A stretch of 64,000 nt of DNA, taken from assembly GCF_009914755.1 (NCBI RefSeq), contig NC_060936.1. One strand, written 5' to 3'. The position numbers and the translations under genes are program-made. Source of the stretch: the human T2T-CHM13v2.0 reference genome, Homo sapiens. How positions within the stretch are numbered: the first letter of the stretch is position 1; each line of letters begins with the position of its first letter. Positions 24,064-51,275 of this stretch are shown piece after piece. Under the pieces are notes generated by a model, which made no database searches, was not told where the DNA came from, and saw nothing but the letters and a program-made list of their open reading frames with translations.

Positions 24064-24674
24064 TTACGGTGAATCAGAATGTGACAGGGCTGGTGGCAGA
24101 GGGATTGGTGTCATTTGGAGACCCATATTGTAATCTTAGTAAGAACATAGTTTACAATATGTCACTGGGTTCTTACATTACCTGCACTCTATTAGCCATG
24201 ACTATTGTGGTTGCAAGCGGCAGAAACCCAAATAAAGAAAAAAAAAACACAAAGTAATTTATTGGCTCATCTAATTATGATGTTGAAAGATGGACCTGTT
24301 TTCAGGACTATAGAGACTCTGAGAGAAAGTTGCTCTCTCTCCCTGTCCTGCTATCTCTCTCCCTGGCTCTTTCTTTCCATCTTTAGCACTATTTCTCATT
24401 CCATGTTGGTATCATTTTCCTCTATAACAAATATTCTTTTCCCTTTTGACTTTTGTGTAGTGGCCATTCAGGAATTTACATTATATGGAAGGACAGAAAT
24501 AGTTATTTGGTCTCTTGTGTGGACCCTGAGAAGTCAGTGAGTTTTACAGAATTTCTTTGGGGGAATGAAATGAATCAATATTCCTTGCACCTGAAGCCTA
24601 ACCATCTCACAGGACTGTGCTCCCCCTGGGGAAGAACATAAGGGTGTCACAGTCTAAAGATATCATCATCCCTT

Positions 24675-27204: not shown

Positions 27205-27525
27205 AGCTATAAGAAATAGAAGTTATTAAGTCAACATCATAAATATGGAGCTAAGACTCAGAGAGAATAAGAAAGTTGCCAAAGATCACACAGGACGTAA
27301 ATGTTATAGGTGGAATTTGAACATGTGCTCTCATCGTGAGGCCCTGGTCAGAGCAGGCCTGGAGCTATAAGAAATAGAAGTTATTAAGTCAACGTCATAA
27401 GTATGGAGCTAAGACTCAGAGAGAATAAGAAACTTGCCAAAGATCACACAGGACGTAAATGTTATAGGTAGAATTTGAACATGTGCTCTCATCACGAGGC
27501 CCATGCTTAGAGCAGGCCTGGAGCT
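27205..27525. repeat. Tandem duplication (2 x ~158 bp) of a MIR-derived segment
   Basis: Copies 27205-27362 and 27363-27521, about 9 differences by eye; AGCT at both ends and at the junction. Confidence 0.95.
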
Positions 27526-31611: not shown

Positions 31612-32030
<419 letters not shown>

Positions 32031-49445: not shown

Positions 49446-49831
49446 AAAGTAAATATTCTTTGTATGTAAGTCCTCTGAATACAGAAATGGTCACATGACA
49501 CAAGCCTAGACAATCAGAGTCCTGCACTGGCTCCTCTGCCCTTTGCATCCTTTAATCTCTCCCACTGGTGCCATCAGAGCCCGCGCTGAGTCTGGCTTTG
49601 AAGAGGATTGAAGAATTGGGTTAGAACTCCATCTGATGCTGACCTGGCCTGACCTCCAAACACTGCTTCTCCCACTGCGCCTAAGATTAAGGAACTACCT
49701 CCGTGTGTGGGGGAGAGCTGTCCCACCTACCTGAATGCTCACTGTAGAGGGTTTAACTCTTGTTTTTGTTTCTTCATAATTCATTCTCTCATTCTTTGTC
49801 TTGATTCTCCTTCCACGATGCTCCCTATGCC

Positions 49832-50784
49832 GTTTTTTTTTCTGAATATATAAGTAATATATTTTCTTTGTTGAAAATTCAGAAAATACGAAAAAGACTT
49901 TAGAAGAAAGTAAGTATCACCCATAACCCAACACTGAGCAGTAATAACCACTCTAACATTTAGGTATATTTTCTTCTTTTTTCTATGCATTTATGTTTTT
50001 TTTTAAATTAAGATTGTACTATATATATATAACTTGTTTTTAAAATATTTAATTTTTGAACAGACAATATATTTTACATGGCTAAATAATCAAAAAGTGT
50101 AAAATTGTATACAGTGAAAAGTCTTGCTCCCTTCTGATCACATAAGTAATTACCATTTATCAGTTTCCTTACAGAGATTTTGTTTTAAATGTTTTTAGAG
50201 ACAGGGTCTCACGTTGTTGCCCAGGCTGGTCTCAAGCTCCTGGCCTCAAGCAGCCTCCTACCTTGGCTCCCAAGGTGCTGAGATTACAGGCATAAGCCAC
50301 TATACCCAGCCCTTCCAGAGAATTTTTATGCTTATTAAAAGCAATTATGAATAATTTTCTTTGCTATACCTGCAAGTTTTTAATATAAATAGCACACCGT
50401 AGTAACTATTCTGCATCTTGCCTTTTTCACTTAATATATGCTATAATTCATCCCAAATCATTACATAAAGAGCTGCTTCATTCTTTTTTACAGCTGTCAT
50501 TTTATAATATTCCATTGTATGTATGTACCATCATTTATTTAGCCAGTCCCCTGGTGAATGGATATTTAGATTGTTTCCAATCATTTGCTATTAGTAACAG
50601 TGTTTGTATATAGATTATTTTGCCCTTTACTGTAAGATAAATTCCTAGAATTCTTAAAGGGTATGTGCATTTGAATTTTGATAGCTGTTGCTAAATTGTC
50701 CTCCAGGAAGTTATATATATATAAATGCCCTCACCAGAGGCCAGGTGCAGTGGCTCACACCTGTAATCCCAGCACTTTGCAGGG
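49832..50784 (-). mobile_element. Direct-repeat-bounded composite insertion (old L1ME + FLAM 50183-50311 + Alu 5' stub 50739-50779); candidate orphan transduction or retroposed RNA
   Basis: gatgctccctatgcc at 49817-49831 and 50785-50799; T-tract follows the left copy. Confidence 0.7.
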
Positions 50785-51275
50785 GATGCTCCCTATGCCA
50801 TTCTTCGCCCATTTGACTTTAGGTACAGTCTCAGTAATCGGGCAGAATCATGTGACTCAGCCTAACCAATAAGAGTTCCACTTCCCTATGGCCATGGTGA
50901 TCGGTGCAAAGCTGAGCACATAATCTAAGTTGCCACAGTCAGAGCCAATGAGGGGAGGCCCCTGGGTTTTCACTGAAACTATTGGACAACTGGAGTTCTC
51001 TTTCTGCTGGGTTTGCCAGGCTAGTGGGCTATAAGGATGAAGCTGCCATCTTGAGAATAAATTCAATCCAGTAGAAAATAAAACTAAAAGATGGGGAGAG
51101 AAACTAAAGCTTGATGATATCATTTGAGTACCTGAATTCAATCATACCTGAAAGCAGACAACTCCACCCCTAGACTTTTAAATTATGTGAATCAATAAAT
51201 TATTTTTATTTCCTTAAACCCATTGAGTTGGGTTTCTGTCTCTTGCAAACATAGAGGTCCTAGCTAAAGAACTAA
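50785..51275 (+). mobile_element. MLT1J/K/L-like MaLR LTR
   Basis: catgtgactcagcctaaccaat...gatatcatttgagtacctgaattcaatcatacctgaa...aataaatt...gggtttctgtctcttgcaaac. Confidence 0.75.

What the first reader, a model, noticed from the sequence alone, without database searches (positions are those of the whole stretch)
49817..50805. ~950-bp mosaic of dead repeats bounded by a perfect 15-bp direct repeat: candidate orphan transduction
Seen: gatgctccctatgcc occurs at 49817-49831 and 50785-50799, extending imperfectly to gttttt versus attctt. A T-tract follows the left copy. Between the copies lie highly diverged L1ME sequence, a FLAM with its own TSD, and an Alu cut off after ~41 bp close to the right repeat; MLT1 LTR sequence follows. 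Established: L1-mediated insertions leave ~7-20 bp TSDs, an A tail and 5' truncation. Inference: an L1ME would be unlikely to keep a perfect TSD, and the Alu stub dates the unit to primates. An RNA from another locus was probably reverse-transcribed from the old L1 A-rich end and truncated inside an antisense Alu. Repeat annotation would split this into unrelated pieces.
Basis: partly seen in the sequence, partly recalled or inferred. Interest (0 to 1): 0.75.

Follow-up and report, generated by a model that had tools for sequence, protein, structure and literature searches.

The report
Backwards RUBCN intron copy on chr12
A 950-base piece of an intron of the autophagy gene RUBCN on chromosome 3 has one 91%-identical copy on chromosome 12, flanked by a perfect 15-base repeat; it was likely pasted there roughly 30-40 million years ago by LINE-1 reverse transcriptase copying an antisense RNA, a known kind of accident with no sign of function.

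Summary
Window 49835-50779 is a copy of chr3:200,443,447-200,444,410 (852 of 932 aligned bases identical). It is the only full-length relative found. At chr3 the Alu is complete, the old L1 continues upstream and the 15-mer is absent, so chr3 is the source and the 15-mer is a target-site duplication (TSD). The source lies in the 12.8-kb intron 2 of RUBCN, and the strand ending in the A-run is antisense to RUBCN. 'Orphan transduction' in the strict sense is not supported: there is no young or full-length + strand L1 within 90 kb upstream. The 'tail' (A9) is barely longer than the source's genomic A7 and is followed by the same base, with no AATAAA. Best reading (0.5): LINE-1 trans-mobilisation of a donor-less antisense RNA primed internally at the A7, about 30-40 Mya. 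Rivals: cryptic polyadenylation with an eroded tail (0.2), DNA-templated break repair (0.15), a donor L1 since lost (0.12). Empty-site orthologues could not be examined. It is a new member of a known kind: a real hidden duplication with no evidence of function.

The parts
49817..49831 (.). Left copy of the 15-bp target-site duplication
   Evidence: best match at the chr3 source has 4 mismatches
49832..49841 (-). 3' end of the copy: A9 followed by C on the minus strand; the source has a genomic A7 followed by C
49842..50181 (-). Old L1-like 3' sequence, 83% identical to chr3:200,444,058-200,444,403 (subfamily not tested)
   Evidence: chr3 hit plus 10 short 69-89% hits elsewhere
50182..50311 (-). 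Alu monomer (FLAM-like) with its own ~15-bp TSD, already present at the source
50312..50738 (-). Old L1 3' region, 91% identical to chr3:200,443,491-200,443,903 and about 64% to a young L1
50739..50779 (+). First 41 bp of an Alu that is complete at chr3:200,443,187-200,443,487; 5' truncation point of the copy
50780..50784 (.). Five bases not matched to the source (untemplated bases, or a decayed continuation of the Alu)
50785..50799 (.). Right copy of the 15-bp target-site duplication
50800..50805 (+). T-rich six bases that could extend the TSD to 21 bp and be the nick/primer end (imperfect match to the L1 endonuclease site)
50787..51269 (+). Old LTR-like dispersed repeat (MLT1-like from recall) that includes the 15-mer; the target of the insertion
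   Evidence: paralogue L048 aligns from 50787 to 51269

Best explanation
Window 49832-50784 is a single copy of 964 bp from intron 2 of RUBCN on chr3, bounded by a 15-bp target-site duplication, and was likely written in by LINE-1 ORF2p reverse-transcribing an unspliced RNA antisense to RUBCN, likely primed at a genomic A7 rather than at an added tail. Steps: (1) shown: source, direction of copying, boundaries, TSD, antisense orientation. (2) Inferred: a staggered cut in an old LTR on chr12 exposed a T-rich 3' end that paired with the A7 (and perhaps a few bases beyond it). (3) Inferred: cDNA ran about 950 nt and stopped 41 bp into the antisense Alu. (4) Inferred: second-strand synthesis gave the TSD. 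(5) Estimated: about 30-40 Mya, soon after the Alu arrived at the source. It is most likely neutral, lying in an intron of a predicted lncRNA.
For: One full-length relative among the 40 candidates scored of 3936; repeat searches with the two non-Alu parts gave no third copy (40 of 388 scored; 12 of 12). Homology ends within 3-5 bp of each 15-mer. The source has the whole Alu, and the old L1 continues collinearly upstream of it. The source lies between RUBCN coding exons 2 and 3 on the minus strand. No donor L1. A9 versus A7, and the base after the run is the source's base. An A-rich tail of 9 or less is seen in 13 of 114 Alus and 4 of 35 S-type Alus. No AATAAA or ATTAAA near the 3' end. Tailless, internally primed copies with TSDs are described and peak on the anthropoid branch (PMC5322556); internal priming need not use an endonuclease site (PMC5402677).
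Against: No RNA antisense to RUBCN intron 2 was shown, and one search found no paper whose title or abstract reports one. Weak poly(A) signal variants sit 27 and 22 nt before the A7, with T-rich sequence after it, so real polyadenylation is possible. About 11% of true Alu tails here are as short. The extra target/template pairing (5 of 8 bases) is reached by 27 of 363 other A-runs, so it is not significant. The target end matches neither TT/AAAA nor the tailless consensus well. The shared base after the A-run is a single nucleotide and could be a CpG-type change. No empty site was seen.
Confidence: 0.5

Rival explanations
1. Same retrotransposition, but the antisense RNA was cleaved and polyadenylated at a weak cryptic signal, and the tail has since eroded to 9 A (an ancient, fixed analogue of a class 1 templated sequence insertion).
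For: AAGAAA at -27 and AATATA at -22, with T-rich downstream sequence; TSD present; 13 of 114 Alu tails in the sample are 9 or shorter.
Against: No AATAAA or ATTAAA; the run ends exactly where the genomic A7 ends and is followed by the source's base; median tails of the Alu groups are 12-26.
Confidence: 0.2
2. DNA-templated repair: a staggered break on chr12 with a T-rich 3' end invaded chr3 at the A7 microhomology, copied about 950 bp of DNA and rejoined. No RNA involved.
For: No added tail, no splicing, no donor, antisense orientation and an imperfect endonuclease site: nothing in the copy requires RNA. Five unmatched bases at the far junction.
Against: Break-repair patches (class 2) are described as lacking TSDs (PMC5110952); a 15-21 bp TSD with an A/T run at one end only is the usual L1 product.
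Confidence: 0.15
3. True orphan 3' transduction: an active L1 sat upstream on the + strand about 35 Mya, its read-through RNA was copied with 5' truncation, and the donor never fixed or was later deleted.
For: It would explain transcription antisense to RUBCN. Donors are often missing at source loci in non-human primates (PMC4862182). The source Alu has no TSD (score 0, while 7 of the 10 near-full Alus in 200.438-200.452 Mb score 9 or more), so a deletion happened there.
Against: No young + strand L1 remnant in 90 kb apart from a 129-bp, 71% scrap 47 kb away. The old L1 is collinear across the Alu with at most about 150 bp missing. No sibling copies.
Confidence: 0.12
4. The 15-mer pair is chance or an assembly artefact and the pieces are unrelated local repeats.
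For: None found.
Against: One colinear 91% source covering all pieces and ending at both repeats; p about 6e-7; 9% divergence rules out an assembly duplicate.
Confidence: 0.01

Closest known systems
Tailless retropseudogenes / internally primed L1-mediated insertions (Noll et al. 2015, PMC5322556, passages and part 3 of 5 read; PMC5402677, passages read)
   Same: TSD, no clear added tail, 3' end at an internal A-rich site of the template, anthropoid-era age.
   Different: Those come from known RNAs (tRNA, snRNA, rRNA, 7SK, mRNA, Alu, L1). Here the template is anonymous intron sequence, antisense to its gene, and the target fits their consensus poorly.
Class 1 templated sequence insertions (Onozawa and Aplan 2016, PMC5110952, parts 1-2 of 4 read)
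   Same: Distant intronic or intergenic template, TSD, no L1 attached, source left intact.
   Different: No 10-40 nt untemplated A tail, no AATAAA, imperfect TTTT/A site; this copy is old (9% diverged), not a recent polymorphism.
Orphan L1/SVA 3' transductions (PMC12350158 and PMC4862182, passages read)
   Same: Non-exonic sequence alone, 5'-truncated, with a TSD; it would be binned here by the operational rule 'aligns outside exons' if its short A-run were called a tail.
   Different: No progenitor element at the source and no clear added tail.
Trans-mobilised genomic DNA, Ejima and Yang 2003 (only the title seen, in a reference list; content recalled: an unspliced ATM segment copied in antisense orientation without an L1)
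   Same: As recalled: unspliced gene segment, antisense orientation, TSD, no associated L1.
   Different: As recalled, that copy holds an exon and a poly(A) tail; this one is purely intronic repeat debris.

Membership tests
Orphan 3' transduction | Transduced sequence maps to one non-exonic source locus | tested here: met
Orphan 3' transduction | Target-site duplication at both ends | tested here: met
Orphan 3' transduction | Full-length L1 or SVA upstream of the source on the same strand | tested here: not met
   none within 90 kb in this assembly; a lost donor cannot be tested; SVA was not searched for (too young for this divergence, from recall)
Orphan 3' transduction | Untemplated poly(A) tail | tested here: inconclusive
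   A9 versus genomic A7
Class 1 templated sequence insertion | TSD of at least 5 bp | tested here: met
Class 1 templated sequence insertion | 10-40 untemplated A | tested here: not met
   at most 2 A more than the source; erosion cannot be excluded
Class 1 templated sequence insertion | AATAAA 10-20 nt upstream of the tail | tested here: not met
   only weak variants at -22 and -27
Class 1 templated sequence insertion | TTTT/A endonuclease site | tested here: inconclusive
   T-rich end only if the TSD is read as 21 bp, and then followed by C
Class 1 templated sequence insertion | Polymorphic in people | not testable with these tools
   one assembly only; 9% divergence suggests it is fixed
Tailless (internally primed) retropseudogene | TSD | tested here: met
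Tailless (internally primed) retropseudogene | 3' end at an A-rich internal site of the template | tested here: met
Tailless (internally primed) retropseudogene | No added oligo(A) tail | tested here: inconclusive
   favoured, but 13 of 114 Alu tails are as short
Tailless (internally primed) retropseudogene | Target site complementary to the template at the 3' end | tested here: inconclusive
   5 of 8 bases beyond the run; 27 of 363 control runs do as well
Tailless (internally primed) retropseudogene | Derived from an identifiable RNA | tested here: inconclusive
   No Rfam family in L001 or L002; no transcript data available for the antisense strand
Processed pseudogene | Exonic, spliced, sense to the parent gene | tested here: not met
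   intronic and antisense to RUBCN
Class 2 templated insertion (break-repair patch) | No TSD | tested here: not met
   definition from PMC5110952
Any insertion | Empty site with one 15-mer in outgroup species | not testable with these tools
   No primate or mammal genomes held; pairwise test of LTR continuity into the left flank not significant

The most novel reading that the evidence does not exclude
This is one visible example of an uncounted class: fixed, tailless copies of anonymous antisense or nascent intron sequence, primed at short genomic A-runs, which repeat annotation splits into 'ancient' L1, Alu and LTR pieces. Such copies would record antisense transcription in the germline 30-40 Mya (or LINE-1 ORF2p copying DNA), and would make some apparently ancient L1M insertions primate-specific.
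Probability: 0.3. Interest if true: 0.55.

Novelty: new member of a known kind. Interest (0 to 1): 0.35.

Why it matters
The locus itself is probably neutral. It matters as a clean case of a small interchromosomal duplication hidden under repeat labels. Its old-L1 content would be misdated as ancient, and its antisense, probably tailless, donor-less anatomy falls between orphan transductions, class 1 templated insertions and tailless retropseudogenes. A genome-wide count of such copies would test how often LINE-1 machinery captures non-polyadenylated nuclear RNA, or DNA, in the germline.

Tried and rejected
Chance repeat or local mosaic: rejected. chr12 as the source: rejected, since only chr12 has the TSD and the cut Alu. 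RNA sense to RUBCN: disfavoured, because the A/T run and the T-rich target end are both on the side that requires the opposite strand (sequence). Pol III read-through from the + strand Alus just upstream: rejected by inference, since T-runs lie between them and the copied part. snoRNA or other small-RNA retroposon: no Rfam match. Sibling copies: none. LTR continuity into the left flank: no genome hit for the left flank. In one search the best left-flank alignments were not beyond shuffles for L046 (151 of 200) and were marginal for L047 and L048 (1 and 9 of 200), but they fell on an Alu-like stretch or away from the junction. The anchored test was not significant (77 of 150 shuffles as good). 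Pfam and PDB did not name the RUBCN 5' exons; a protein search did. Three primary papers (Ejima and Yang 2003; Onozawa 2014, 2015) were not held.

Full report
Observation. The 15-mer sits at 49817-49831 and 50785-50799 and nowhere else in the window with up to one mismatch; none of 100 shuffles gave two matches. It extends to 21 nt at 90%. After the left copy come one G and nine T. Between the copies lie old L1 sequence (161 of 252 sites identical to the 3' region of a natural young L1), an Alu monomer with its own TSD, a 41-bp Alu 5' stub and five unmatched bases. The subfamily names L1ME, FLAM, MLT1 and AluSg are from recall; no repeat library was available.

Source. A search of the window's own genome with 49832-50784 gave one full-length relative, chr3:200,443,447-200,444,410 on the opposite strand; the other listed hits are Alu-sized pieces (40 of 3936 candidates scored). 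Searches with the two non-Alu parts found the same locus at 91% and 83%, and otherwise only short 68-89% hits (40 of 388 scored; 12 of 12). The pairwise alignment has 852 matches, 80 mismatches (54 transitions) and 14 gaps, and runs from window 50779 to 49835, so it ends 5 and 3 bases from the two 15-mers. The chance of a perfect 15-mer pair so placed is about 6e-7. At chr3 the Alu is complete (200,443,187-487), the old L1 continues collinearly upstream and the best match to the 15-mer has 4 mismatches. So chr3 is the source, chr12 the copy, and the 15-mer a TSD.

Target. The right flank matches three other loci at 69-70%, and one of them aligns from 50787, inside the 15-mer, to 51269. The insertion therefore landed in an old LTR-like repeat. 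Continuation into the left flank could not be shown. By the hub's annotation the site is in the second intron of the predicted lncRNA LOC124903080.

Gene context. An exon peptide near the source matches RUBCN proteins at 94-100%. Mapping a full-length RUBCN protein places all coding exons on the minus strand, with a GT-AG intron from 200,450,347 to 200,437,568 between coding exons 2 and 3. The source is inside this intron, and the strand that ends in the A-run is antisense to RUBCN. No Rfam family is present.

Donor test. In 191 kb around the source, blastn with a young L1 and tblastn with its ORF2 found, on the + strand upstream, only a 129-bp, 71% fragment 47 kb away. The strict orphan-transduction feature is not met. 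Donors are often absent at source loci in non-human primates (PMC4862182, passages), so a lost donor stays possible. The source Alu lacks a TSD (score 0; 7 of the 10 near-full Alus nearby, itself included, and 33 of 69 overall score 9 or more), and up to about 150 bp of old L1 is missing across it. That points to a small Alu-associated deletion rather than loss of a 6-kb element.

The 3' junction. The source has a genomic A7 followed by C; the copy has A9 followed by C and then the TSD. There is no AATAAA or ATTAAA; weak variants lie at -27 and -22, with T-rich sequence downstream. Of 114 near-full Alus in the data, 13 have A-rich tails of 9 or less, and 4 of 35 S-type ones, so a true tail this short is uncommon but not rare. 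The paralogue L048 has A at the position after the 15-mer, like the right copy. This suggests that the G at 49832 came from the source rather than the target, but it rests on one base in one distant copy. Five of the next eight target bases also match the source, which 27 of 363 control A-runs equal: not significant. Together these favour internal priming without proving it.

Age. Non-CpG, gap-distant divergence is 63 of 828 sites (JC 0.080, 95% range 0.060-0.101), giving 27-40 My at assumed rates of 1.0-1.5e-9 per site per year, and 20-63 My over all rates and bounds tried (the rates are my assumption). The copy must postdate the source Alu, which has S-type motifs (recalled); AluS was most active 35-60 Mya (PMC5402677, passages). 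In the 41-bp stub the two copies share none of their departures from the majority of 117 local Alus (3 versus 2), which suggests copying soon after the Alu arrived. About 30-40 Mya is the best estimate.

Mechanism. Most likely (0.5) LINE-1 ORF2p acted in trans on an unspliced RNA antisense to RUBCN, primed at the A7 from a T-rich cut end, copied about 950 nt and stopped inside the Alu. Rivals: cryptic polyadenylation with an eroded tail (0.2), DNA-templated repair of a staggered break (0.15), and a lost upstream L1 donor (0.12). Source, direction, TSD and orientation are shown; the RNA intermediate, the enzyme and the priming mode are inferred.

Comparison with the known. It works like tailless, internally primed retropseudogenes (PMC5322556, passages and part 3 of 5) and like class 1 templated sequence insertions, whose templates include intronic and intergenic sequence (PMC5110952, parts 1-2 of 4). 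It fails the tail and AATAAA features of the latter and the donor feature of orphan transductions (PMC12350158, passages, counts 48 polymorphic orphans beside 878 other annotated transductions). PMC5059674 and PMC12016303 (passages) added only background. Ejima and Yang 2003 was seen only as a reference line. Ten literature searches listed no paper whose title or abstract start concerns this pair of loci. Subscription papers and supplementary coordinate tables (such as that of PMC5322556) were not examined and could list it.

Verdict. A real, well-bounded, primate-age interchromosomal copy that repeat annotation would split up; a new member of a known kind of LINE-1 by-product, with an unusual combination (antisense, donor-less, probably tailless) and no evidence of function. 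Interest 0.35.

Noticed in passing
window 27205-27525: A two-copy tandem duplication with period about 158 bp (several exact blocks of 17-36 bp).
   Followed up: no
L002:1241-1541 (chr3:200,443,187-200,443,487): The source Alu has no TSD and up to about 150 bp of the surrounding old L1 is missing: a probable Alu-associated deletion or Alu-Alu recombination.
   Followed up: partly
G000:C17:20561989-20562591 +: An intronless match to the whole RH_dom family in a 317-aa open frame without stops; possibly a retrocopy of a RUBCN/PLEKHM1/DEF8-type gene.
   Followed up: no
G000:C1:173,723,117-173,725,949 and C9:113,547,326-113,548,525: Intronless FYTT-family matches with stops, probably FYTTD1 processed pseudogenes.
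   Followed up: no
window 24192-24306, minus strand: A second short copy (66%) of the old LTR-like repeat found right of the insertion.
   Followed up: no
window 31630-31646 and 31966-31982: A perfect 17-bp direct repeat around a masked Alu-sized element: an ordinary TSD.
   Followed up: no
window 50781-50794: The last four unmatched bases before the right TSD are the reverse complement of four bases inside it, so a small fold-back is possible; too short to weigh.
   Followed up: no
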